IMG/VR virus record: IMGVR_UViG_3300028581_001913
Length of the DNA: 64,000 nucleotides
Reading direction: 5' to 3' (one strand)
DNA from: an uncultured virus (IMG/VR IMGVR_UViG_3300028581_001913)
Taxonomy: Duplodnaviria; Heunggongvirae; Uroviricota; Caudoviricetes
The stretch's first letter is position 1. Each line of letters starts with the position of its first letter. The notes under the pieces were generated by a model, which made no database searches, was not told the origin of the DNA, and worked only from the letters and a program-made list of their open reading frames with translations. The position numbers were made by a program, and so were the translations under genes. Positions 49,417 to 59,372 of this stretch are shown piece by piece.

Positions 49417-49770
49417 ATGAACATTATATTTGGAGATGCACTGGACTCACTGCCCGACAACTACACTGTGTTGGAGCTGGATACTTTTGTGTTGCCGCCC
49501 GACGGGGCAACTCGTACCAGTTATTGTGTGATAGAAAAAATGCCATTGACTGATTTTCCAATGATGGAAGCCTTTATCAAGGTGCACACGGACATGATGC
49601 AGGCCTATAGAGATCAGAATTGGGACTATTGTTTGCATGCCATCAGTGGATTGACTGGACGTTGGAATGGAGAATTAGACAGTTTCTACTCCAACTTGTT
49701 ACAACGTGTGGAAAACTATCAAGCCAACACACCAGGTAATGATTACACTGGTTTTGTAGACAAACGCTGA
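49417..49770 (+). CDS. Hypothetical protein
   Basis: AAGGA SD, 117 aa. Confidence 0.6.
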   Translation: MNIIFGDALDSLPDNYTVLELDTFVLPPDGATRTSYCVIEKMPLTDFPMMEAFIKVHTDMMQAYRDQNWDYCLHAISGLTGRWNGELDSFYSNLLQRVENYQANTPGNDYTGFVDKR

Positions 49771-50912
49771 AGTCCAGTCCGAAGAGCGTCAAAATATTCA
49801 TCGTCGGCAGTGAGTGGTGCAAACACCTTGACGCTGGTATCTCCCCACAGTGCAGCCGAGAATTTTGCAACTCTGCATAGCTCTGCAAAAGATATCACAC
49901 GATCAAAATCAAAAGACATGAAAGTATTGGCTCCGCGACAGTTGAGATCGAGTTCAGTGGCGATGTCTTTTAATCTTTGATGTATTTGGGCAGCCTGTGG
50001 AAGCAAGGTTAGTATCTGTTGTGTAGCACACAACGCCGCTGCTACTCCAGACATGTTGGGCTGCCAGGTATGTCCGTGAGACCAATTTTGGGTGTCTATT
50101 TGTGCAAGTACTTTTTCGTTGCAGCAGGCTGCCCCCAATGGTGAATATCCATTGGTCAAAGATTTTCCAATGGTACATATATCCGGTTGTATACCATAAG
50201 GTTCATATCCAAACATAGTGCCATTTGTGCCCCAACAAAATGCCACATCGTCTACTATCATTAATACATCGTGTTCTGTGCAGATGTTTCGTACACTTTG
50301 CCAATATTCTGTGCTATGAGGGGCCACGTGCATAGCCCAGCTTACGGTTTCCATGATCAAACATCCAATATCAGGATTTTCTTTCAGAGTTTTTTGAATA
50401 CGAGCTAAAGTGAGTTTTTCTTGTCCATGCTGTTGGTATTGATATTGCCAACTGGGACTGGGTATCAACACTGATCGATTGAGGTACTCGTATTGACCAC
50501 GCAGATGTTTTGCCAACATGGTGGTTCCGTGATAACTACCGGCAAAGCTGAGTACCTTGTGCTTTTTGAGACCACGAGTTTGCCAGTAGGTATCGTTCAT
50601 GGCCATGGCAGCTTCCACAGCATCTGATCCACTTACGGCCCAGGTCAATGCAGCCCATTGTCCCAATTCACAAATTAATTTTACCAATTTTTTGTTGTCA
50701 GCAGATGTTTCACCGGTGTTGCCACGTATGAAATTCACTGGATTGTTGGCCACAGCAGTGGTTATTTCATTGTTTTGATAGCCTAAGATATAGGCCATGT
50801 TGCCACACTGTATGTCTAAACAACGTTGACCATTGGAATAGTGTATCCATGAACCTTGAGTGTGAGTTACTGTTTTTTCCCGTTCACCGGGCGACCAAAA
50901 TTTTATTTCCAT
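49743..50912 (-). CDS. Class III PLP-dependent aminotransferase
   Basis: SGSDAVEAA, SYHGTT, IVDDV, PDICTIGKSL and HGHT. Confidence 0.85.
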   Translation of the reverse strand: MEIKFWSPGEREKTVTHTQGSWIHYSNGQRCLDIQCGNMAYILGYQNNEITTAVANNPVNFIRGNTGETSADNKKLVKLICELGQWAALTWAVSGSDAVEAAMAMNDTYWQTRGLKKHKVLSFAGSYHGTTMLAKHLRGQYEYLNRSVLIPSPSWQYQYQQHGQEKLTLARIQKTLKENPDIGCLIMETVSWAMHVAPHSTEYWQSVRNICTEHDVLMIVDDVAFCWGTNGTMFGYEPYGIQPDICTIGKSLTNGYSPLGAACCNEKVLAQIDTQNWSHGHTWQPNMSGVAAALCATQQILTLLPQAAQIHQRLKDIATELDLNCRGANTFMSFDFDRVISFAELCRVAKFSAALWGDTSVKVFAPLTADDEYFDALRTGLQRLSTKPV

Positions 50913-50942: not shown

Positions 50943-51239
50943 TTAAATTTCAGGACTGCTTCCGGTCTTGTCTTCACCAGCACCTAACACACAGGCTATT
51001 CTAGTGTCATATTCTATCATGGTCCATGAACGAGTTTCTCGATTCATCATTAATGTGATATAAGTGTTGTGTACTGATTTTCCAACCCAGACTGGTGTTT
51101 CTTTGTGTGTATCTACAAAATAGTTTATCACGCTTTGTGCGTCTGAACACTTCATTGGTTTGGTTAGATCGATAATCTTTTGGGCGTGGGCTATAGAGCT
51201 GATTAGGCAGAATAACAACGCCACTGCTGTATTTTTCAT
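50943..51239 (-). CDS. Small exported protein
   Basis: Signal peptide ending AHA, and two Cys in the mature part. Confidence 0.6.
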   Translation of the reverse strand: MKNTAVALLFCLISSIAHAQKIIDLTKPMKCSDAQSVINYFVDTHKETPVWVGKSVHNTYITLMMNRETRSWTMIEYDTRIACVLGAGEDKTGSSPEI

Positions 51240-51264
51240 AGTGGCTTCTCCTGTGTGATATTTA

Positions 51265-52263
51265 TTACACAACAGGCACTAGATTATCTCTAAAAATTTC
51301 CCATGCATTGCGCCATGACCAACGCTGACTGCCGTCCCACACACGATGTCTGGGCAAAAACAAGCAATCTGTTACTGCTTGCTTCAAGTAAGGATTCATG
51401 CATCCTGTGATACCTTCGTCTATCACATCCAAGGGACCGGTGGCAGGATACGCAGCCACCGGAGTACCGCAGGCCATGGCTTCGATCATCACAATGCCAA
51501 ACGTTTCCCACTGGCTGGGAAACACAAACACATCTGCCAGATTGTAGTAGTAGGCTAGATCAGCACCGGTTTTGAATCCCACAAACTCCACATCAGGGTA
51601 ACGTGATTGCAACTCTGCACGATACGGTCCATCGCCTACCAAGATCTTGCGTGAGTTGTGATAACTCATGCCACAAAAATCATCCAAGTTCTTTTCTCGG
51701 CTGACTCTTGACACACATACCAAGGTGGTCTTTGCATTGGGCAAGCGTTCTCTAGGATAGAATATTTCTCTATCCACGCCACGAGTCCATGGTATGATGT
51801 CACCGTCAAAGCCGTGCTGGCGCAACTCCTGGACCATGGTTTCAGTTGTGGTCAGCACCTTGCCCGAGTGTTTGTGGAACCAACGCACTAGAGGCCAAGT
51901 AATGGCTTCAGGTATGCCAAACAGTTTTCTAAGTCCTTCTGGAAATTTAGTATGATAAGCAGTGTTGTAGCGATAATGATGTTTGTCAAGATATTGTCTA
52001 ACACGCAGACCCACAGGACCCTCAGTGGCGATGTGGATATGATCCGGACGGATCTCCTCAAGTATCGGGCCCACATTCCGGGGAAGGGCAATCTTGACTT
52101 CGTTGTAGCCAGGGCAATCAAAGTAGCGGAACCGCCTGGGATCAAGATATACAACACGATAGTTGTCGCGAATCGCATGCGCCTCAATATTTTTATAGGT
52201 TGTAACCACGCCATTGATCTGATCCGGTAAGTTGTCTGTAACGATCAAGATTGTTTTTGACAT
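51265..52263 (-). CDS. GT4 glycosyltransferase, Agt-like (glycosyl/glucuronosyl-diacylglycerol synthase)
   Basis: IVTD..QINGVV, HIATEGPVG, YHTKFPE, WFH, RGVD, ETFGIVMIEAMACGTPVAAYP. Downstream of a plcP-like gene. Confidence 0.8.
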   Translation of the reverse strand: MSKTILIVTDNLPDQINGVVTTYKNIEAHAIRDNYRVVYLDPRRFRYFDCPGYNEVKIALPRNVGPILEEIRPDHIHIATEGPVGLRVRQYLDKHHYRYNTAYHTKFPEGLRKLFGIPEAITWPLVRWFHKHSGKVLTTTETMVQELRQHGFDGDIIPWTRGVDREIFYPRERLPNAKTTLVCVSRVSREKNLDDFCGMSYHNSRKILVGDGPYRAELQSRYPDVEFVGFKTGADLAYYYNLADVFVFPSQWETFGIVMIEAMACGTPVAAYPATGPLDVIDEGITGCMNPYLKQAVTDCLFLPRHRVWDGSQRWSWRNAWEIFRDNLVPVV

Positions 52264-52418
52264 TGTCCTTTTACCTTGAATGTTTTGAATTTTAACTCAT
52301 ATCGCATGGTCGTCAGCACCTGTTCGCAACTGAGCTGATTTGGGAAAACTAATTCTATTCTTCCGGGTTGATCTTGCGGATTCGTGCTGTGTACTGCTAT
52401 CAATATCATCAACCACAT
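52245..52418 (-). CDS. Small 57-aa protein between plcP-like and agt-like genes
   Basis: AGGAG SD. MWLMILIAVHSTNPQDQPGRIELVF...GQCQKQS. Overlaps both neighbours. Confidence 0.5.
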   Translation of the reverse strand: MWLMILIAVHSTNPQDQPGRIELVFPNQLSCEQVLTTMRYELKFKTFKVKGQCQKQS

Positions 52419-53169
52419 TGTCAGTCTCCTGTGTCCATGTTATAATTTCCCATGTGCCGTCATGACGCTCTACTAACGCTGTACATGATTCTACCCAGTC
52501 GCCGTCATTCATGTATGCCACGCCATCTATGTTTTTGATTTCTGCGTGATGTATGTGTCCGCAGATCACACCATCAAATCCTCGCTTGCGACAGTAATCA
52601 GCAAGATTGTGTTCAAAGTGAAATATAAAGTCTACTGCTTTTTTGACCCGATGTTTAAGGAACAGGCTAAGGCTAAAGTACCCAAAACCAAAACGATGAC
52701 GAATCCAATTGATCCTAGTGTTGAGTCCAAGAATGAAATCATATGCTTTGTCTCCCAACATGGCCAACCACGGCGCCAATCTAGTGATGCCGTCAAACAT
52801 GTCACCATGCACCACAAGATAATGCCGACCGTCTGCACCTATGTGTTCTGTTTGATTTACCAATTCAATTATGCCAAACCCAATGCCATACTGCATGAAA
52901 GGTCTTAGAAACTCGTCGTGATTACCAGCCACATATACAACCCTAGTACCGCGCTTGCTATGGCCCAGCACACGACGAATAACATTAGTGTGCGACTGTT
53001 TCCAGCGCCATTTGTTTTGTTTGATTTTCCAGGCATCAATTATGTCTCCCACAAGATACAATGTTTCGCAGGTGTTGTGTTTGAGGAAGTTGTTGAGTTT
53101 GTCAGCCTGGCAATCTTTGGTACCAAGGTGTACATCGCTGATAAAAATTGAGCGATAGGTTTTTTGCAT
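52297..53169 (-). CDS. plcP: PlcP-like phospholipase C (LpxH-family metallophosphoesterase)
   Basis: FISDVHLG, LVGDIID, GNHDEFLR, HGDMFD, GHIH and GDWVESCTA. Adjacent to Agt-like GT4, with an upstream Pho-like box. Confidence 0.75.
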   Translation of the reverse strand: MQKTYRSIFISDVHLGTKDCQADKLNNFLKHNTCETLYLVGDIIDAWKIKQNKWRWKQSHTNVIRRVLGHSKRGTRVVYVAGNHDEFLRPFMQYGIGFGIIELVNQTEHIGADGRHYLVVHGDMFDGITRLAPWLAMLGDKAYDFILGLNTRINWIRHRFGFGYFSLSLFLKHRVKKAVDFIFHFEHNLADYCRKRGFDGVICGHIHHAEIKNIDGVAYMNDGDWVESCTALVERHDGTWEIITWTQETDNVVDDIDSSTQHESARSTRKNRISFPKSAQLRTGADDHAI

Positions 53170-53173
53170 CTAG

Positions 53174-53208
53174 TATTTACAAACACATGTGTTACAGTAA
53201 CGTTACAA
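53174..53208 (-). promoter_or_regulatory. Pho-box-like direct repeat plus TAAATA
   Basis: Minus strand reads TTGTAAC-GTTA-CTGTAAC, 11 nt, TAAATA, 4 nt, ATG. Confidence 0.65.
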
Positions 53209-53517
53209 TTTGTCTTGCCTAGATGCCTGTAGTTCTTGACGTAAAATTTTATAGTCTTCCAGCGTGGCAATTGAGGGCACAGTAGTCTTCATGTATGCAG
53301 GAGGCACAGTTTGCCATTCTGATTCACTCACACCGGCCACTATCATGGCAGTGTATTCGTGCCCATCGCTGGTATGCAGTTGCACTCGTTCAAATCCTTG
53401 TGGAGTCTTGGCTGCGTTCATACAGGCCTGTGCCAAAGCTCTAAGAGCTGCCGGGTCTGCTATGATGTGTAAATCTTGTCGGGGTTCATTGTGGGGATAT
53501 ATGTGTAGTCTAGCCAT
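53203..53517 (-). CDS. Hypothetical protein
   Basis: 104 aa, coupled to the stop of the DnaE-like gene. Confidence 0.6.
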   Translation of the reverse strand: MARLHIYPHNEPRQDLHIIADPAALRALAQACMNAAKTPQGFERVQLHTSDGHEYTAMIVAGVSESEWQTVPPAYMKTTVPSIATLEDYKILRQELQASRQDKL

Positions 53518-55193
53518 TATGTTATGTGCTCAATGTCCTTTAGGTTCATGCGTTTACTTTTGTACACTTTAACACATTCTGAACTGTTTGCATAGTCCAA
53601 ACGGCCTTTGCCCCACAAGATTGGTTGATCGCTGAAGGACATGGCATGTGGAACTATCACATCTAGATAACGGCCGTTGCCAGTGCCCAAGGTAGCAAAG
53701 GTTATGTAGTCTTTGGCGCCGCTTTTGAACACACGATAATTGGCTACCAGTCCCAGAAATTCTACTTCGCCTGGACGTCTTATTTCAGTGCAAGCAGGAA
53801 TAAAATTACTGCTGCTCCAACGACCAGTTCGTGCCAGTTCAGCACATTCTCCGCCTTGCATGGGTGCAGGCACTGCTCCGGCCAGTTTGGCTTCTTGATA
53901 ATACACCCAACTGCTGTAACTGCCTTCGCAGTGTTTCAAACAGGCTCGCCAGAACGCCTCAGGGTTGTGTGCCTTTTGGTAGGCCAAGGCCCAGATCAAT
54001 CTGCCCAAATTAGTGGCATGTGCCCGACACAGTCCAAAGTGACTGAGTTCACGCAGTGACGCCAACACAGTATCACGCTTTGGGTGGTCACCAATCAACT
54101 GCATAAACTCATAGATCTTTTCTTCATTGCGTTTGGCAAACGCTCTACGCCACATGTCAGCAGTGTACATGTCACAGTCCAATATGTCAGCTATCATGGT
54201 GATAGCATCATCTTCAAACACCACTGTGTCTTGTTGTATAGTGTCGGCACTCCAGTCTTGAAATGCACTGGCTTTACGTCGACCCTGTGTGGCCACTGGA
54301 CGTATCAGTGCAGTGGCCAGGGTACAGTCGCTCCGGCTCTTGACTTTGAGAGCTCTAAACAGTCTTTTCATGGCTGGACTTTCTCCCTGAGTCACACCCA
54401 ACACATCACCACGACCCAGCAGGTCACTGGTCTTCTCATCATGCTCGGGATAGTCTGTGAGTGGGCGTTGATCAATCTCCCACAGTTGACTCAGTCCACG
54501 ATTGGCCAGGATATCTATTTTGAAATGTTCAAGATCTTCAGTTTCGTGCTTGTCCAACAGGATTTGGTTGTTGCTATTGATCAGACTTTTGGGCACAGCA
54601 CGATCAAAAATTAAGATGCCACCGCAGTGTTTGGAAATACAGCGTTTTTTGCCCATGAGTTTGGCTGTGACTCGTTCGGCTTCTTTTATTTCTTCTGGAG
54701 GCAGTACCTGGCTGAATTCAAATCCACGTTTGAGTGTGCCTTTAGCTCCCAGCCTTTTGGCTGCTTCCCTCTTGGCTGACTTTTCTTTGTACATCACATA
54801 GTTGCTGACTCTGGCACTTTGTCCGGGCCAACGACGGAATATGCGATTCATCACAGTGGCCTGTTGCCAGTGCGGAAAATCAAGATCAATATCAGGAAGG
54901 TCGTCACGTTTGGGATTCATAAAACGTGCTATGGGAATGTTTTCTGCCACAGGATCTAGATCACTGATGCCCATGAGCCAGCATACCAGGCTTGAGCCTG
55001 CGGACCCTCGGGTGATATGTGGAATGTCTGTGGTAAGATCCAGTATTTCTCTCACACGCAGGAAATGTCGGGAAAAGTTTTGATCTCTAATTAGTTCTAG
55101 TTCTTCTGCCAGTCTGTGTGCGTATTTGGGATCTTGTGGTAATTCTCTTCTAAATTGTTTTACTAGTTGTTCAAGTTCTTTATATCTGTCCAT
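53517..55193 (-). CDS. PHP-less DnaE-like C-family DNA polymerase (~558 aa)
   Basis: RGSAGSSLVCW..GISDLDP, PDIDLDF, KHCGG, FKIDIL, ALIRP and RAHA. Start inferred at ATG 55193. Confidence 0.8.
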   Translation of the reverse strand: MDRYKELEQLVKQFRRELPQDPKYAHRLAEELELIRDQNFSRHFLRVREILDLTTDIPHITRGSAGSSLVCWLMGISDLDPVAENIPIARFMNPKRDDLPDIDLDFPHWQQATVMNRIFRRWPGQSARVSNYVMYKEKSAKREAAKRLGAKGTLKRGFEFSQVLPPEEIKEAERVTAKLMGKKRCISKHCGGILIFDRAVPKSLINSNNQILLDKHETEDLEHFKIDILANRGLSQLWEIDQRPLTDYPEHDEKTSDLLGRGDVLGVTQGESPAMKRLFRALKVKSRSDCTLATALIRPVATQGRRKASAFQDWSADTIQQDTVVFEDDAITMIADILDCDMYTADMWRRAFAKRNEEKIYEFMQLIGDHPKRDTVLASLRELSHFGLCRAHATNLGRLIWALAYQKAHNPEAFWRACLKHCEGSYSSWVYYQEAKLAGAVPAPMQGGECAELARTGRWSSSNFIPACTEIRRPGEVEFLGLVANYRVFKSGAKDYITFATLGTGNGRYLDVIVPHAMSFSDQPILWGKGRLDYANSSECVKVYKSKRMNLKDIEHIT

Positions 55194-55281
55194 TAAATGC
55201 TGCCTTAGTTGTTTTAGGAAAATACTTATGATATGATATTTTACCATGAGAAGATTTTGGTCATGTATACCGGATATAAAT

Positions 55282-55305
55282 CTGTAATATATGTGTTTAT
55301 AAATA
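55282..55305 (+). promoter_or_regulatory. Pho half-box plus TAAATA
   Basis: CTGTAAT, 11 nt (ATATGTGTTTA), TAAATA. Confidence 0.5.
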
Positions 55306-55310
55306 CTGCT

Positions 55311-55952
55311 GTGAAACCCACCATAGCCCTGTTCATCCATGATCCCCGATGCTCGGTACAGAGTGGCAATGGCATAATGCAAGCCTTGAGCAACAGCTAC
55401 AACTTCAAACTGTTCTCAAAAAATTGTGTGGAGGATGTTTTCTTCAATGATGTAGACATGATTGCAGTGCCTGGCGGATTTGGTGATGCTGACAGTTACG
55501 ACAATCTATTGCAACACAATGCTCCGGCGGTGCAAAAATTTGTGCAGGCCGGCGGCAGATATCTAGGCATCTGCATGGGCGCATACTGGGCAGGACTGCA
55601 CTATCTCAACATCTTGGATTCAGTAGATGCTGTGCAGTATATTCGTCGTCCAGGCTCAGATACACGCCGCCCACATGCCAAAGCTGTAGATGTGACCTGG
55701 CAGGGTCGACCTGATCGAATGTTTTTTTATGATGGATGCGCCTTAGTTGGAGATCAGAGCAAGTTTGAAACTGTGGCCACCTATGCCAATGGTGACGCCA
55801 TGGCCATTATACAAAACAGAATTGGCCTAATAGGATGTCACCCCGAAGCTGAACAATTTTGGTACAACGACTACTCTTGGATGCGCCGACACTGGGCAGG
55901 TGGGCACCGTCATCGGCTGCAACAGTTTGTTGACCAACTCATGCAGTCGTAA
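55311..55952 (+). CDS. BPL_N / class I glutamine-amidotransferase-like protein
   Basis: VPGG, YLGICMGAY and GCHPE. GTG start. Confidence 0.75.
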   Translation: MKPTIALFIHDPRCSVQSGNGIMQALSNSYNFKLFSKNCVEDVFFNDVDMIAVPGGFGDADSYDNLLQHNAPAVQKFVQAGGRYLGICMGAYWAGLHYLNILDSVDAVQYIRRPGSDTRRPHAKAVDVTWQGRPDRMFFYDGCALVGDQSKFETVATYANGDAMAIIQNRIGLIGCHPEAEQFWYNDYSWMRRHWAGGHRHRLQQFVDQLMQS

Positions 55953-56032: not shown

Positions 56033-56590
56033 TTAGAAACTACGTGTGTAGCTCAAACGCCATGCATCTTTTTCTTCGTCACCGTAGCTGCGTGAAAAAC
56101 GCACAGCCACTGAATCTTTCTTGGTCAATGCATAACCCACTGTGGCATGCACACGACGAGTTTCGTAAGTGCTATTGACATCGCTGTCAATGGCATTGCG
56201 ATAACGTCCGCCAACATCACCAGTGAAGCCAGCAAACAACGGGAATTTCACACCTGCGTCAATAGCATAGTAACTAAAATGAGTTGTACTCTTGATGCTC
56301 TCGCCCAGGCGTCCGCCCAAGTAAAATGCGCCAAAAGATTTTCTAGCACGAGCTTCCAAGCCTGAACTGATTGTACCTGATCCCAGTGCAGTTTGGCTGG
56401 TACTGGTTTTGAGACTGTAGTCCCAACCCTCAGCAGCTTTGATACCAACTACCACTGCATTGGCAATGTTGTCGGCGCTGGTCGCGCGGTTTTCTTCTTC
56501 GCTGTACTCATAGGTGGCATAGCCTGTGGCAAATGCTGTACTGGTTGCAGCCACCAAAAGTGCGGCAGCGATTGCTTGGGTAAATTTCAT
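56033..56590 (-). CDS. Outer-membrane beta-barrel (porin-like) protein
   Basis: Signal peptide (AFA), amphipathic beta strands and C-terminal YTRSF. Confidence 0.75.
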   Translation of the reverse strand: MKFTQAIAAALLVAATSTAFATGYATYEYSEEENRATSADNIANAVVVGIKAAEGWDYSLKTSTSQTALGSGTISSGLEARARKSFGAFYLGGRLGESIKSTTHFSYYAIDAGVKFPLFAGFTGDVGGRYRNAIDSDVNSTYETRRVHATVGYALTKKDSVAVRFSRSYGDEEKDAWRLSYTRSF

Positions 56591-56683
56591 AGTTTCTCCT
56601 TTGTTAATTTACTGTATCATTGTAGATGTTTTATATAGCCATGTCAAGCAAACTGAACAATATTTCTGTGCATTGCATACTGA

Positions 56684-56718
56684 TATTTAAACACATTTAT
56701 GTTACAGTAGTGTTACAA
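56684..56718 (-). promoter_or_regulatory. Pho-box-like direct repeat plus TAAATA
   Basis: Minus strand reads TTGTAAC-ACTA-CTGTAAC, 11 nt, TAAATA. Confidence 0.65.
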
Positions 56719-58130: not shown

Positions 58131-59372
58131 ATGGAAAAAATTGGCTTCGTTGGGATTGGAAAATTAGGATTGGATTGTGCGGAAGTCATGGCTGAAAAGC
58201 ATGAAGTGCGCGGTTATGATATTTACCCACGTTCAAGCGACTCGGTAAAAGTTTGTGACATTGCTGAATTGGTAAACGAAAGTGAATGGATTTTTATTGC
58301 TGTGCCTACCCCACATGCTGAAGGCTATGATGGTTCGGTCCCATCCAGCCACATGGAACCCCGTGATTTCGGTCATGACGCTGTGATTGATGCAATCAAG
58401 AATGTTAACCTTTATGCAACCACACCCAAGAAGGTTGTTTTGATTTCAACAGTGTTGCCTGGTACCACACGCCGACACTTTTATCCACTACTGGATTCAA
58501 AACATCAGTTCCTATACAACCCGTATCTGATTGCCATGGGGTCAGTCAAATGGGACATGGTCAACCCGGAAATGGTAATGATTGGCACCGAAGACGGTAA
58601 CCCCAATGCCCTAGCAGGTGAGTTGATTGACCTTTACAAAACCATCATGGCCAACGATCCACGCTATGAAATTGGTACCTGGGATGAATGCGAAGCTATC
58701 AAGATCTTCTACAACACATTTATCTCAGCCAAGGTCGGTCTTGTGAACATGATTCAAGATTTTGCCCTGCGCATTGGCAACATCAACGTTGATGTAGTCA
58801 CTAATGCACTGGCACGTAGCACCATGCGCATAATGGGACCCAAGTACATGACAGCCGGCATGGGCGATGCAGGTGCTTGCCATCCACGTGACAACATTGC
58901 CTTGCGTTGGTTGGCCAAGGAATACAACATTGGCTACGACTTGTTTGACACGGTGATGCATGCACGAGAAGTACAGGCCAAGAATCTGGCCATGTACCTG
59001 TTGGACTTGAGCGTGATGCACGACAACATGCCCATCGTGATACATGGCAAAGCCTACAAACCTGATGTGGAATACTGTATTGGTTCATATTCAACCTTGG
59101 TAGGACACTACATTGAACAAGAAGGTCGTCGGGTTGTTTACGTTGATCCCTTGGCAGATGACCCAACCAATGTTGTAGCCTCAGTAGACACACCTGCAAT
59201 CTTTTTGTGGGCACACAACCGCAAGATCACTTATGAATACACTGGTGATCAGCTAGACACACTGCCCTACTGCAACATCCAACCAGGCAGCGTTATTGTT
59301 GATCCATGGCGCGAACTCACATCAACCACTGAGGTAGAAGTCGTCCACTATGGCAACACAAGATCTCATTAA
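58131..59372 (+). CDS. ugd: UDP-glucose/GDP-mannose dehydrogenase family protein
   Basis: GIGKLG, IAVPTP, STVLPGT, KIFYNTF, GACHPRD and AYKP. Confidence 0.8.
   Translation: MEKIGFVGIGKLGLDCAEVMAEKHEVRGYDIYPRSSDSVKVCDIAELVNESEWIFIAVPTPHAEGYDGSVPSSHMEPRDFGHDAVIDAIKNVNLYATTPKKVVLISTVLPGTTRRHFYPLLDSKHQFLYNPYLIAMGSVKWDMVNPEMVMIGTEDGNPNALAGELIDLYKTIMANDPRYEIGTWDECEAIKIFYNTFISAKVGLVNMIQDFALRIGNINVDVVTNALARSTMRIMGPKYMTAGMGDAGACHPRDNIALRWLAKEYNIGYDLFDTVMHAREVQAKNLAMYLLDLSVMHDNMPIVIHGKAYKPDVEYCIGSYSTLVGHYIEQEGRRVVYVDPLADDPTNVVASVDTPAIFLWAHNRKITYEYTGDQLDTLPYCNIQPGSVIVDPWRELTSTTEVEVVHYGNTRSH

What the first reader, a model, noticed from the sequence alone, without database searches (positions are those of the whole stretch)
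51265..53208. Phage-borne plcP-agt pair: candidate phosphate-starvation membrane-lipid remodelling system
Seen: a metallophosphoesterase (SDVHLG, GDIID, GNHD, HGD, GHIH, GDWVESCTA) followed, past one small ORF, by a GT4 (QINGVV, HIATEGP, YHTKFPE), with a Pho-box-like repeat upstream. Established: in Sinorhizobium, Agrobacterium and marine heterotrophs, PhoB-controlled PlcP cleaves phospholipids to diacylglycerol plus phospho-headgroup. Agt then converts diacylglycerol to P-free glyco- or glucuronosyl-lipids. GNHD rather than GNRD is the PlcP-type motif, as opposed to LpxH. Inference: the phage mines host membrane phosphorus for DNA synthesis while keeping the membrane intact with glycolipid. 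The ugd at 58131 could supply UDP-glucuronate. I do not know of a described phage-encoded version, but I could not search for one.
Basis: partly seen in the sequence, partly recalled or inferred. Interest (0 to 1): 0.9.

Follow-up and report, generated by a model that had tools for sequence, protein, structure and literature searches.

The report
Phage phosphate-starvation membrane lipid-swap operon
A large uncultured lake phage carries its own copies of the two bacterial enzymes that replace phosphorus-containing membrane lipids with sugar lipids, behind a phosphate-starvation-type switch, so it probably draws phosphorus from its host's membrane while it multiplies.

Summary
On the minus strand lie a Pho-box-like repeat (53191-53208), a metallophosphoesterase (52297-53169), a small overlapping gene (52245-52418) and a GT4 glycosyltransferase (51265-52263). 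The esterase is PlcP-type, not LpxH: GNHD not GNRD, LpxH models far below cut-off, and a 100%-supported split from LpxH. The GT4 carries the Agt/GTcp residues except one Asp-to-Glu change. In 72 of 72 related phage contigs with enough sequence, a glycosyltransferase follows the esterase: GT4 in 41, GT2/GT21-like in 31. The repeat occurs twice in the window (0.04 expected). In three related 148-225 kb phage records it occurs twice, before this gene and before a PstS-type gene (one of the three scored, above cut-off). The small ORF is a real, virus-specific gene of unknown function. Enzyme activities, PhoB binding and phosphate-dependent expression are untested. No experimentally characterised PlcP or Agt sequence could be compared directly. 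The ugd link is not supported. I found no paper describing a phage PlcP. Public annotations call it LpxH. This scan reported the same module earlier on other phage DNA. Those are unchecked AI notes and I reached my reading before seeing them.

The parts
53191..53208 (-). Pho-box-like operator: two 7-bp direct repeats (TTGTAAC, CTGTAAC) at 11-bp spacing. It matches 9 of 14 specified positions of the consensus CTGTCATNNNNCTGTCAT. It overlaps the stop codon of the upstream ORF.
   Evidence: Sequence read. The pattern occurs 2 times in the window against 0.04 expected. A box lies within 100 nt upstream of the esterase in 36 of 79 related phage loci, against a background of 0.0028 per 103 nt. The same composite motif precedes a PstS-type gene in 3 relatives. 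The consensus comes from PMC8528852.
53174..53179 (-). TAAATA, a -10-like hexamer 11 nt after the repeat and 4 nt before the ATG. There is no Shine-Dalgarno sequence, so a leaderless or near-leaderless transcript is inferred.
   Evidence: TAAATA is conserved in relatives. The same 11-nt spacing is seen at the second site in the window and before the PstS-type gene in relatives. Its role as a promoter element is inference.
52297..53169 (-). PlcP-like metallophosphoesterase, 290 aa. The conserved enzyme ends near residue 250 (about 52420). Residues 251-290 are a variable read-through tail that overlaps the small gene.
   Evidence: The tail has pLDDT about 30 and the stop position wanders from 252 to 294 aa among relatives. 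LpxH is the closest solved fold.
52245..52418 (-). Conserved small gene (57 aa) in the +1 frame relative to the esterase. It overlaps the esterase tail and the GT4 start. Predicted fold is strand-strand-helix-strand with two invariant Cys. Function unknown.
   Evidence: It starts at or within a few codons of esterase nt 751 in most relatives. tblastn finds it in 62 of 77 loci. Invariant residues are M1 W2 I5 I7 D16 P18 C31 F47 C53 in 38 sequences. Variability peaks at its third codon positions. AlphaFold pLDDT is 88. A profile search finds 64 representative clusters, nearly all proteins of 35-112 aa.
51265..52263 (-). Agt/GTcp-like GT4 glycosyltransferase, 332 aa. Predicted diacylglycerol glycosyltransferase.
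   Evidence: Motifs SRVSREKN (185-192) and FPSQWETFG (248-256). H104, R161, W317, G18, G82, G85, R186, K191, T254, F255, G256 and E261 are invariant in 29 aligned rows.
50943..51272 (-). Small secreted-looking protein on the same strand directly after the GT4, with a signal-peptide-like N-terminus after an internal ATG. Possible operon member, function unknown.
   Evidence: No family in Pfam, NCBIfam or PHROGs. Homologues lie next to the esterase unit in about 20 of 80 phage loci, either after the GT4 or just upstream of the esterase.
49743..50912 (-). Class-III aminotransferase-fold protein (389 aa), next on the same strand. Its membership of the operon is uncertain.
   Evidence: Pfam Aminotran_3 171 bits. 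It holds the same position in 6 relatives: L045, L046, L048, L051, L055, L061. PDB matches are generic transaminases.
56684..56717 (-). Second copy of the same operator plus TAAATA (TGTAAC-N5-TGTAAC at 56701-56717, then 11 nt, then TAAATA at 56684-56689). It lies upstream of a predicted outer-membrane protein gene.
   Evidence: In relatives the site after the orf401 homologue holds a PstS-type gene plus a Porin_4 porin behind this motif.
56033..56590 (-). Predicted small outer-membrane protein (185 aa) with a signal peptide and a C-terminal aromatic residue. It lies behind the second operator. Likely a second member of the same regulon.
   Evidence: No family match. Homologues sit directly upstream of the esterase in L065 and L097.

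Best explanation
This is a phage-encoded version of the bacterial PlcP-Agt 'lipid renovation' pathway, arranged as an operon: operator, plcP-like gene, small gene, agt-like gene.

Proposed mechanism:
1. In a phosphate-starved host, the host's PhoB response regulator binds the two 7-bp repeats that take the place of a -35 element, and it switches the operon on (inferred).
2. The PlcP-like metallophosphoesterase cleaves membrane glycerophospholipids to diacylglycerol plus a phospho-headgroup (inferred from family membership).
3. The Agt-like GT4 transfers a sugar from a UDP-sugar to the diacylglycerol. This gives phosphorus-free glycolipid, so the membrane stays intact (inferred from conserved catalytic and diacylglycerol-binding residues).
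4. The released phospho-headgroups feed the phosphate pool that the phage needs for nucleotide synthesis (inferred; the phosphatase step is not identified).

The 57-aa protein encoded in an overlapping frame is a virus-specific third component of unknown role.

The same switch controls phosphate-uptake genes in relatives (a PstS-type protein and a porin) and an outer-membrane protein gene in this window.
For: Shown by tools:

1. Family.
- Metallophosphoesterase with all metal-binding motifs.
- LpxH models TIGR01854 and NF003743 score 37 and 45 bits against cut-offs of 190 and 134, and align only the N-terminal half.
- GNHD where 15 of 15 LpxH rows and 2 solved LpxH chains have GNRD.
- In a 91-row tree, 16 LpxH rows separate from 75 PlcP-like rows with SH-aLRT 100. 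The second, non-LpxH paralogues of LpxH-bearing genomes fall with the window protein.
- 146 of 401 sampled genomes of the class of a Roseomonas genome carry a homologue, mostly 42-58% identical. Proven PlcPs are 46-47% identical to each other (PMC8528852 passage).

2. Partner.
- In 35 of 40 cellular loci the homologue is directly followed by a GT4 36-44% identical to the window GT4.
- Of 37 such cellular GT4s read, 33 carry the published Agt-clade motif FPSxTDTFG exactly, and 36 carry GRVAxEKN or a one- or two-residue variant of it.
- The window GT4 keeps counterparts of every residue reported essential in GTcp, except that Asp256 is Glu253.

3. Linkage in phages.
- 72 of 72 related phage loci with at least 1300 nt downstream have a glycosyltransferase after the esterase.
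- 41 are Agt-like GT4 and 31 are GT2/GT21-like. None has neither and none has both.
- This mirrors cellular plcP context types 2 and 3/5.

4. Regulation.
- The operator occurs twice in the window.
- It occurs twice in each of three related records of 148-225 kb. The second copy precedes a 338-aa ORF. In L127 that ORF scores 402 bits on NF008171 (cut-off 339) as PstS.
- At the same position some relatives have TGTCAT or TGTCAC half-sites (L062, L102, L118).
- Cellular homologues in L004-L010 and 18 of 30 nearest cellular pstS genes carry canonical boxes. Three of these have a TGTAAT half-site.
- Pelagibacter phage Mosig has a 47%-identical homologue divergent from its pstS.

5. Contigs from RNA libraries that are 85-99% alike cover both genes in 3 metatranscriptome runs of 3 studies.
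Against: - No experimentally characterised PlcP or Agt sequence could be put into the tree or alignments. Membership rests on motifs, synteny and identity ranges.
- The operator differs from the consensus at 5 of 14 positions, including the C of TGTCA in both halves. The host and its Pho box are unknown, and PhoB binding is untested.
- 43 of 79 related loci lack the box by my regex. By the earlier classing, 17 have a two-hairpin element and 7 have another conserved element. Regulation is therefore not uniform.
- The donor-binding motif has Trp-Glu where the characterised clade has Thr-Asp. Sugar specificity, or even the acceptor, could differ.
- The esterase model is only moderately confident, with mean pLDDT 67.
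- No enzyme that frees phosphate from the headgroups was identified.
- The RNA-library contigs cannot exclude carried-over DNA, and they show no transcript start.
- There is no ribosome-binding site before the esterase.
Confidence: 0.65

Rival explanations
1. The enzymes are what they seem, a phospholipase C of PlcP type and a lipid glycosyltransferase. But the phage uses them for its own membrane purposes and not to obtain phosphorus. Examples would be changing the cell surface to block superinfection, or preparing lysis. The repeat would then be bound by a phage-encoded regulator or serve as a phage-specific promoter, not a PhoB site.
For: - The operator is a consistent variant (TGTAAC, not TGTCAT) at both sites in the window and in relatives. 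That could reflect a phage factor.
- 43 of 79 relatives lack the box, and many of these carry other upstream elements.
- A virus-specific small protein is always coupled to the esterase.
- No headgroup phosphatase was found.
Against: - The only other gene behind the same operator in three relatives is PstS-type, the hallmark phosphate-starvation gene.
- TGTCAT or TGTCAC half-sites replace TGTAAC in some relatives.
- Cellular homologues carry canonical Pho boxes.
- In Mosig the homologue is paired with pstS.
Confidence: 0.2
2. The esterase acts on another pyrophosphate- or phosphodiester-linked lipid or nucleotide, for example CDP-diacylglycerol or a UDP-linked lipid. The glycosyltransferase then builds a different glycoconjugate, so the pair is not a PlcP-Agt pathway in the strict sense.
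For: - The closest solved fold is LpxH, a UDP-lipid pyrophosphatase.
- The donor motif is altered from Thr-Asp to Trp-Glu in the window GT4 and in 30 of the viral GT4s read.
- The GT4 is replaced by an unrelated GT2/GT21-like enzyme in 31 of 72 phage loci.
Against: - 49-59% identity to the cellular proteins that sit in plcP-agt operons.
- The diacylglycerol-contacting residues of GTcp are conserved.
- GT21 is the family of the processive diacylglycerol glycosyltransferases (PMC8231724 passage). The alternation therefore fits a diacylglycerol intermediate.
Confidence: 0.08
3. The public annotation is right. The gene would be lpxH (UDP-2,3-diacylglucosamine diphosphatase) and the GT4 a cell-wall or LPS glycosyltransferase, so the phage would be modifying lipid A or LPS synthesis.
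For: - JGI names for close relatives are 'UDP-2,3-diacylglucosamine pyrophosphatase LpxH' and 'glycosyltransferase involved in cell wall biosynthesis'.
- GenBank annotates the Mosig and S-SRM01 homologues in the same way.
- Virome papers list viral lpxH under LPS biosynthesis (PMC9611531 table; PMC10653327 section 3.4.6).
Against: - LpxH models score far below their cut-offs.
- GNHD instead of GNRD.
- A 100%-supported split from LpxH.
- Genomes that have a true LpxH carry this type as a second paralogue.
- The Roseomonas genome has only this type, at 36 bits.
Confidence: 0.05
4. The region is host DNA wrongly joined to a phage contig, through contamination or chimeric assembly.
For: - One close relative lies on a contig binned as a Haliscomenobacter MAG (L003).
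- Both proteins have cellular homologues.
Against: - The same gene order is seen with flanking phage genes (DnaE fragment, orf104, ClpS, Hsp20, UvdE) in many independent IMG/VR contigs. The L003 contig itself carries those phage genes.
- The phage copies form one clade with 100% support, at most 59% identical to any cellular copy found.
- The stretch is held at 75% or more of its sampled words in 9 lake metagenome runs.
Confidence: 0.02

Closest known systems
Bacterial PlcP-Agt lipid-renovation operon: the 'type 2' plcP-then-agt layout of Sebastian et al. 2016 (PMC4796936), P. aeruginosa PA3219-PA3218 (PMC8528852), and Pelagibacter HTCC7211 PlcP with Agt/GTcp (PMC8231724)
   Same: - Gene order is esterase then GT4.
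- The esterase is a GNHD metallophosphoesterase.
- The GT4 has the GTcp catalytic His, the diacylglycerol-contacting Arg and Trp, and both UDP-sugar motifs.
- A Pho-box-type repeat lies upstream.
- Identities to cellular operon members (49-59% and 36-44%) fall in the range reported between proven members (46-47% and 35-41%).
   Different: - It is encoded by a virus.
- An extra conserved 57-aa gene overlaps the 3' end of the esterase.
- The operator half-sites are TGTAAC, not TGTCAT.
- The donor motif has Trp-Glu in place of Thr-Asp.
- The esterase has no Shine-Dalgarno sequence and starts 4 nt after the -10-like hexamer.
- In 31 of 72 relatives the GT4 is replaced by a GT2/GT21-like enzyme.
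LpxH (UDP-2,3-diacylglucosamine diphosphatase), the name that databases give this protein
   Same: - Calcineurin-like metallophosphoesterase core with a helical insertion.
- The best structural matches are all LpxH: top 25 hits, E 1e-11 to 3e-9.
   Different: - His in place of the LpxH Arg in the GN(H/R)D motif.
- 17-22% identity.
- LpxH family models are not met.
- A separate clade in the tree.
- It occurs as a second paralogue beside a true LpxH.
Phage phosphate-stress auxiliary genes under host PhoBR control (pstS and phoA of cyanophages).
   Same: - A phage gene set sits behind a host-type Pho box.
- A PstS-type gene shares the operator in relatives.
   Different: - The cargo here is membrane-lipid remodelling, not phosphate uptake.
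- I found no paper describing that in a virus.
Pelagibacter phage Mosig EXVC030M gene Mosig_00120 and Synechococcus phage S-SRM01 QPX48289.1, both annotated as UDP-2,3-diacylglucosamine hydrolase or diphosphatase
   Same: - Homologous esterases in isolated phages: 47% and 37% identity, with GNHD and GNHE.
- The Mosig gene is divergent from pstS.
   Different: - No glycosyltransferase lies within the 5-kb flanks.
- Their downstream small ORFs are unrelated to the 57-aa gene.
- Text searches of the Mosig and S-SRM01 genome papers found no mention of the gene.

Membership tests
PlcP (phosphate-starvation phospholipase C) | Calcineurin-like metallophosphoesterase with the full set of metal-binding motifs (DxH, GD, GNHD/E, H, GH) | tested here: met
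   PF00149 scores 41.8 bits against 21.5. D12, H14, D42, N83, H84, H121 and H205 are invariant in 37 sequences.
PlcP (phosphate-starvation phospholipase C) | Distinct from LpxH: His, not Arg, in GN(H/R)D, and outside the LpxH family models and clade | tested here: met
   GNHD in 136 of 139 rows, against GNRD in 15 of 15 LpxH rows. TIGR01854 scores 37.3 against 190.35 and NF003743 scores 45.3 against 134. SH-aLRT 100 for the split.
PlcP (phosphate-starvation phospholipase C) | Orthology with an experimentally characterised PlcP (S. meliloti SMc00171, Phaeobacter MED193, P. aeruginosa PA3219) | not tested
   No tool gave me those sequences by name. Indirect evidence only: the protein groups with homologues found in 146 of 401 sampled Alphaproteobacteria and with the non-LpxH paralogues of LpxH-bearing genomes.
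PlcP (phosphate-starvation phospholipase C) | Followed by a gene for a phosphorus-free lipid synthase (agt, pgt-like, or btaAB) | tested here: met
   An Agt-like GT4 starts 33 nt after the esterase stop in the window. 72 of 72 phage relatives have a GT4 or a GT2/GT21-like gene there. 35 of 40 cellular loci have the GT4. The context types are described in PMC4796936 section 13.
PlcP (phosphate-starvation phospholipase C) | Pho box upstream and induction by phosphate limitation | tested here: inconclusive
   A repeat with Pho-box spacing, 9 of 14 consensus positions, is shared with a PstS-type gene in relatives. Binding and induction were not tested.
PlcP (phosphate-starvation phospholipase C) | Phospholipase C activity on PE, PG or PC | not testable with these tools
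   Needs an enzyme assay or lipidomics.
Agt / GTcp clade of GT4 (diacylglycerol glucosyl- or glucuronosyl-transferase) | GT4 GT-B glycosyltransferase of about 330 aa | tested here: met
   PF13692 80.9, PF00534 79.3 and PF13439 48.1 bits. The protein is 332 aa, against 334 aa for GTcp.
Agt / GTcp clade of GT4 (diacylglycerol glucosyl- or glucuronosyl-transferase) | Residues His104, Arg163 and Trp320, which contact diacylglycerol and are essential | tested here: met
   H104, R161 and W317 are invariant in 29 aligned rows, which include 12 cellular plcP-adjacent GT4s. Residue roles come from PMC8231724. GTcp itself was not in the alignment.
Agt / GTcp clade of GT4 (diacylglycerol glucosyl- or glucuronosyl-transferase) | UDP-sugar motifs GRVAxEKN and FPSxTDTFG, with Asp as the catalytic partner of His104 | tested here: inconclusive
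   The window has SRVSREKN and FPSQWETFG. Arg, Glu-Lys-Asn and Thr-Phe-Gly are kept, but Thr-Asp is replaced by Trp-Glu. Of the viral GT4s read, 30 share Trp-Glu and 12 keep Asp. Glu is the usual GT4 residue at this position.
Agt / GTcp clade of GT4 (diacylglycerol glucosyl- or glucuronosyl-transferase) | Synthesis of MGDG or GADG from diacylglycerol | not testable with these tools
   Needs heterologous expression and lipid analysis, as done for agt in PMC4796936 and PMC8528852.
LpxH | Score above the curated family cut-off, and the GNRD motif | tested here: not met

The most novel reading that the evidence does not exclude
A widespread, so far undescribed class of viral auxiliary metabolism.

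- Hundreds of large freshwater phages, and in reduced form some isolated marine and freshwater phages, would carry a host-PhoB-controlled module.
- During infection of phosphate-starved cells, that module would dismantle the host's phospholipids for phosphorus and rebuild the membrane from glycolipids.
- It would include a virus-only 57-aa protein, translated from a frame that overlaps the phospholipase gene, as a new third component. This could be an activator, an inhibitor or a targeting subunit of the phospholipase.
- Virome surveys currently count these genes as LPS-biosynthesis 'lpxH'.
Probability: 0.5. Interest if true: 0.85.

Novelty: new variant of a known kind. Interest (0 to 1): 0.72.

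Why it matters
- Phosphorus often limits both bacterial growth and phage yield in lakes and oceans. The phage strategies described so far are uptake genes (pstS, phoA) and nucleotide recycling.
- A phage that turns the host's own membrane phospholipids into a phosphorus source, while keeping the cell intact with glycolipid, would be a new route of viral resource extraction.
- It would change how infected cells ('virocells') look in lipidomic and biogeochemical budgets.
- It would correct a systematic mis-annotation. These genes are filed as lpxH or LPS biosynthesis in virome AMG tables.
- The hypothesis is directly testable. Both genes can be expressed in E. coli and read out by lipidomics, and the operator can be tested with PhoB.
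- The conserved overlapping small gene is an unexplained, virus-specific addition to a well-studied bacterial pathway.

Tried and rejected
- **Nucleotide search of the region against GenBank phages:** no match.
- **Nearest held virus record G001 (17.6 kb, 3% complete):** no esterase. The window's own assembly is not held.
- **Class-III aminotransferase (49743-50912) as a phosphoethanolamine phospho-lyase that would free phosphate from the PE headgroup:** the best PDB sequence matches are generic transaminases and nothing discriminates. I dropped this idea as unsupported.
- **ugd as donor supplier for Agt:** it is present at 76% identity in a GT2-type relative too. It has no operator and scores below the NDP-sugar dehydrogenase cut-off (130 against 189.8 bits). 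There is no specific link.
- **Fold of the 57-aa protein:** no PDB match at E of 0.001 or better. The nearest ESM Atlas clusters are unnamed proteins of 56-60 aa. No Pfam, NCBIfam or PHROG family matched. No fused form with the esterase appeared among 64 profile hits.
- **Complex prediction for esterase plus small protein:** the tool's queue was full at every attempt and the job never ran. I make no claim about binding.
- **Small ORFs after the Mosig and S-SRM01 homologues:** they are unrelated to the 57-aa gene.
- **Rfam search of five relatives:** it gave no family for the two-hairpin element.
- **RNA-library contigs:** they cover both genes but cannot show a transcript start, a strand or a level. 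Uncovered bins upstream of the esterase say nothing.
- **Naming genomes reached by the genome search:** not possible, so characterised PlcP and Agt sequences could not be added to the tree.
- **Earlier scan notes for this genome by place:** none.
- **Supplements:** I did not open Supplementary Table S2 of PMC4796936 (plcP contexts) or any other supplement.


Full report
**1. What is there**

The window is phage DNA. Its large ORFs match PHROG families for DNA helicases, a DnaB-like helicase, both ribonucleotide reductase subunits, an ATP-dependent ligase, a DnaE-type polymerase fragment and tail or baseplate proteins. It has no tRNA.

Between 53208 and 51265 the minus strand carries, in order:
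- a direct repeat;
- a 290-aa metallophosphoesterase (52297-53169);
- a 57-aa ORF in another frame (52245-52418);
- a 332-aa GT4 glycosyltransferase (51265-52263).

Pfam assigns Metallophos to the first protein and three GT4-type families to the second, all above their cut-offs. The same strand continues with a small secreted-looking protein (50943-51272) and a class-III aminotransferase-fold protein (49743-50912).

**2. The esterase is PlcP-type, not LpxH**

Public sources call close relatives 'LpxH'. GenBank annotates the homologues in Pelagibacter phage Mosig (47% identity) and Synechococcus phage S-SRM01 (37%) in the same way. The evidence against that name is as follows.
- The curated LpxH models score 37.3 bits (cut-off 190.35) and 45.3 bits (cut-off 134), and they align only residues 6-124.
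- Alignments to solved LpxH chains place the LpxH GNRD opposite the window's GNHD.
- I collected 14 genomic LpxH that pass the TIGR01854 cut-off, plus one just below it. All 15 have GNRD.
- Of 139 rows whose best match is the window protein, 136 have GNHD. The exceptions are S-SRM01 (GNHE), a fragment (L040), and L157, where my regex hit an unrelated N-terminal string.
- I built a quick IQ-TREE of 91 rows: the window, 24 phage rows, Mosig, S-SRM01, 36 cellular rows, 12 non-LpxH paralogues, 15 genomic LpxH and E. coli LpxH. I left out 56 of 80 IMG/VR loci as near-duplicates, and also L035, L040, L042, L130, L155 and L160. The 16 LpxH rows separate from the other 75 with SH-aLRT 100.
- The phage rows form one clade of 25, also with support 100. 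That clade sits within a group (support 94) that also holds Hyphomonadaceae, Myxococcota, Mosig and S-SRM01.
- Genomes that own a true LpxH carry this type as a second paralogue (G413, G422, G449, G453). A Roseomonas genome has only this type.
- A homologue is present in 146 of 401 sampled genomes of that genome's class, mostly as one copy at 42-58% identity. One of the 401, G214, is flagged unpublished. Only this tally touches it.
- Proven PlcPs are 46-47% identical to each other (PMC8528852, passage read).
- The AlphaFold model has mean pLDDT 67, a helical insertion at 123-196 and a disordered tail from residue 247. Its top 25 structural matches are all LpxH. No PlcP structure appeared.

I could not add a named, experimentally proven PlcP to any comparison.

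**3. The GT4 belongs with Agt/GTcp**

- In 35 of 40 cellular loci found with the esterase, a GT4 36-44% identical to the window's follows directly. The exceptions are seven Hyphomonadaceae-type loci and two distant ones.
- Of 37 such cellular GT4s read, 36 carry GRVAxEKN or a variant of it by one or two residues, and 33 carry the second published motif, FPSxTDTFG, exactly. The motifs are those of PMC8231724 (passages).
- In a 29-row alignment, the window protein shares invariant G18, G82, G85, H104, R161, R186, K191, T254, F255, G256, E261 and W317.
- These correspond in position and spacing to the residues whose mutation inactivates GTcp. They include the proposed diacylglycerol contacts His104, Arg163 and Trp320.
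- The one departure is in the second donor motif. The window and 30 of the viral GT4s read have Trp-Glu where the characterised clade has Thr-Asp. Twelve viral copies keep Asp.
- Proven Agts are 35-41% identical to each other.

**4. Linkage across phages**

- IMG/VR holds 372 stretches that encode a relative, and the best 80 (73-98% identical) were fetched.
- Of the 72 loci with at least 1300 nt after the esterase, 41 have the Agt-like GT4 and 31 have a GT2 of about 238 aa. None has neither and none has both.
- Five of these GT2 proteins were scanned. All match Glycos_transf_2. Three also pass the Glyco_transf_21 cut-off, one misses it by 0.7 bits and one has no such match.
- GT21 is the family of the processive diacylglycerol glycosyltransferases (PMC8231724 passage).
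- This alternation copies the cellular plcP contexts 'type 2' (agt) and 'types 3 and 5' (other glycosyltransferases) described in PMC4796936, section 13.
- It is hard to explain unless the esterase product is the glycosyltransferase substrate.

**5. The repeat behaves as a Pho box**

- Upstream of the esterase lie TTGTAAC, 4 nt, CTGTAAC, 11 nt, TAAATA, 4 nt, ATG.
- TGTAAY-N5-TGTAAY occurs twice in the window, with 0.04 expected.
- The second copy (56701-56717) has the same 11-nt spacing to TAAATA. It precedes a predicted outer-membrane protein gene.
- In five related phage records, the composite motif occurs twice in each of three (148, 212 and 225 kb), once in one and not at all in one (345 kb). 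The reversed control pattern occurs nowhere.
- In those three records, one copy precedes the esterase and the other precedes a 338-aa ORF.
- In L127 that ORF passes both PstS equivalog models (402 bits against 339; 385 against 205). A Porin_4 porin follows it. The ORFs in L128 and L129 look alike in the printed residues but I did not scan them.
- A broader half-site pattern lies within 100 nt upstream of the esterase in 36 of 79 loci, or 34 of 64 distinct upstream sequences. It usually ends 19-25 nt before the ATG. The background elsewhere in those loci is 55 hits in 2.04 Mb, or 0.0028 per 103 nt.
- At the same position L062 and L118 have a TGTCAT or TGTCAC second half, and L102 has TGTCAT plus GGTCAT.
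- Cellular homologues of the Hyphomonas type carry canonical boxes.
- So do 18 of 30 of the cellular pstS genes nearest to the phage PstS-type gene (61-64% identity for the best). Three of these combine CTGTCAT with CTGTAAT.
- The window's box matches 9 of 14 positions of the consensus CTGTCATNNNNCTGTCAT quoted in PMC8528852.
- In Mosig the homologue is divergent from pstS.

Points against:
- 43 of 79 loci lack the box by my regex.
- By the earlier classing, 17 have two adjacent hairpins and 7 have another conserved element.
- Binding by PhoB is untested and the host is unknown.

**6. The small ORF is a gene**

- In most relatives a 55-60-codon ORF starts at or within a few codons of nucleotide 751 of the esterase, in the +1 frame.
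- The esterase frame, by contrast, stops anywhere between 252 and 294 codons, and it loses all conservation after about residue 258.
- tblastn finds the small ORF in 62 of 77 loci that could show it, including loci with the GT2.
- Thirty-eight distinct copies share nine invariant residues, among them two Cys.
- Among 28 copies of equal length, variability is highest at the third codon position of the small frame: 0.97-1.16 bits against 0.44-0.69. That site would be the first position of the esterase frame.
- AlphaFold gives a confident strand-strand-helix-strand fold with pLDDT 88.
- A profile search of 1.84 billion representatives finds 64 proteins, 39 at E of 1e-10 or better. All but four are 35-112 aa long, and none is a fusion of esterase size.
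- Foldseek, Pfam, NCBIfam, PHROGs and the ESM Atlas give no function.
- Six loci have a different, basic 43-aa ORF in its place.
- Cellular operons have no room for such a gene, because the gaps are 40-200 nt.
- Its role is unknown. I could not run the complex prediction.

**7. Other evidence**

- The stretch is held at 75% or more of its sampled words in 9 lake-water metagenome runs.
- Contigs from three metatranscriptome libraries of three studies, 85-99% alike, cover both genes. These are contigs, so carried-over DNA is not excluded and no start or strand can be read.
- ugd (58131-59372) is a core gene of these phages. It is also present in the GT2-type record G004, so it gives no specific support to a glucuronosyl lipid.
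- The window has no pstS and no GT2.

**8. Literature**

- Full-text searches for plcP with phage (25 papers) or with viral (162 papers, almost all about papain-like proteases) turned up no phage-encoded PlcP or Agt. I read only the listings.
- The same holds for searches on auxiliary metabolic gene with phospholipase C and lipid remodeling, lpxH with auxiliary metabolic genes and phage, and lipid remodelling with phage-encoded and phosphorus.
- Two virome papers list viral lpxH under LPS biosynthesis (PMC9611531 table; PMC10653327 section 3.4.6).
- Text searches of the Mosig announcement and the S-SRM01 paper found no mention of the gene.
- Papers outside the held library, and supplements, were not seen.

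**9. Earlier notes of this scan**

After I had reached the reading above, look-ups by sequence and by words showed that the scan had reported the same module on other phage genomes. Those reports give the same elements: a PlcP-type esterase, Agt or GT2, a missed 56-residue protein, and a Pho-type site shared with pstS. They are unchecked AI notes, not independent evidence. They did not change my scores.

**10. Verdict**

- The best explanation is a phage-borne, Pho-type-regulated PlcP plus glycolipid-synthase operon with a virus-specific small third gene.
- My rough part-confidences are about 0.85 for family membership, about 0.65 for phosphate-starvation control and about 0.55 for phosphorus mining as the selective benefit. 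Overall confidence is 0.65.
- It is a new variant of a known kind: known enzymes and a known regulatory logic in a viral setting that, as far as I could search, is undescribed and is mislabelled in databases.

Noticed in passing
window 56033-56717 (minus strand): A second copy of the Pho-box-like operator with the same TAAATA spacing precedes a 185-aa predicted outer-membrane protein that has no family match. In relatives the same position, after the orf401 homologue, holds a PstS-type gene plus a Porin_4 porin behind the motif. The window's phage has apparently swapped its phosphate-uptake cargo.
   Followed up: partly
L076, L090, L093, L095, L097, L101, L103, L105, L107, L109, L112, L115, L122: the 60 nt upstream of the esterase start: In a subgroup of relatives the Pho-like box is replaced by a conserved element of two adjacent 5-bp stems. 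Five of the 10 pairs show compensatory changes in 13 sequences. There is no Rfam match. It could be an operator for a dimeric regulator or a small structured leader. An earlier scan note (e1-5648049) mentions an undescribed folded RNA in such a cassette.
   Followed up: partly
L112:11567-11949: A related phage contig whose esterase is 81% identical carries a Betaproteobacteria-type tmRNA (RF01850, 158 bits against a gathering score of 84). Together with the PorB/Porin_4-like porin in L127, this hints at a betaproteobacterial host.
   Followed up: no
L003 (NZ_JBBAKG010000031.1, binned as a Haliscomenobacter MAG): This 70-kb contig carries the phage gene order ugd, UvdE, DnaE fragment, orf104 and esterase, at 72-92% identity to the window. 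It is probably a phage contig mis-binned into a bacterial MAG.
   Followed up: partly
window 50943-51272 and about 20 of 80 related loci: A protein of about 100 aa with a signal-peptide-like start and no family match travels with the esterase unit. It lies either after the GT4 or immediately upstream of the esterase.
   Followed up: no
L052, L053, L064, L068, L073, L081-L083: about 70 nt upstream of the esterase: A third conserved upstream element beginning AATTGTGAC replaces both the Pho-like box and the hairpins in 7 loci.
   Followed up: no
window 53517-55382: A DnaE-type polymerase ORF of 621 aa matches only the middle part of DNA polymerase III alpha (profile positions about 300-800 of about 1000-1150). 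The polymerase may be split into separate genes in this phage.
   Followed up: no
G449 contig C6, 188-197 kb (L156, L165): In one cellular genome the PlcP-like paralogue lies between two pstS homologues. This is another case of physical linkage between plcP and the phosphate transporter locus.
   Followed up: no
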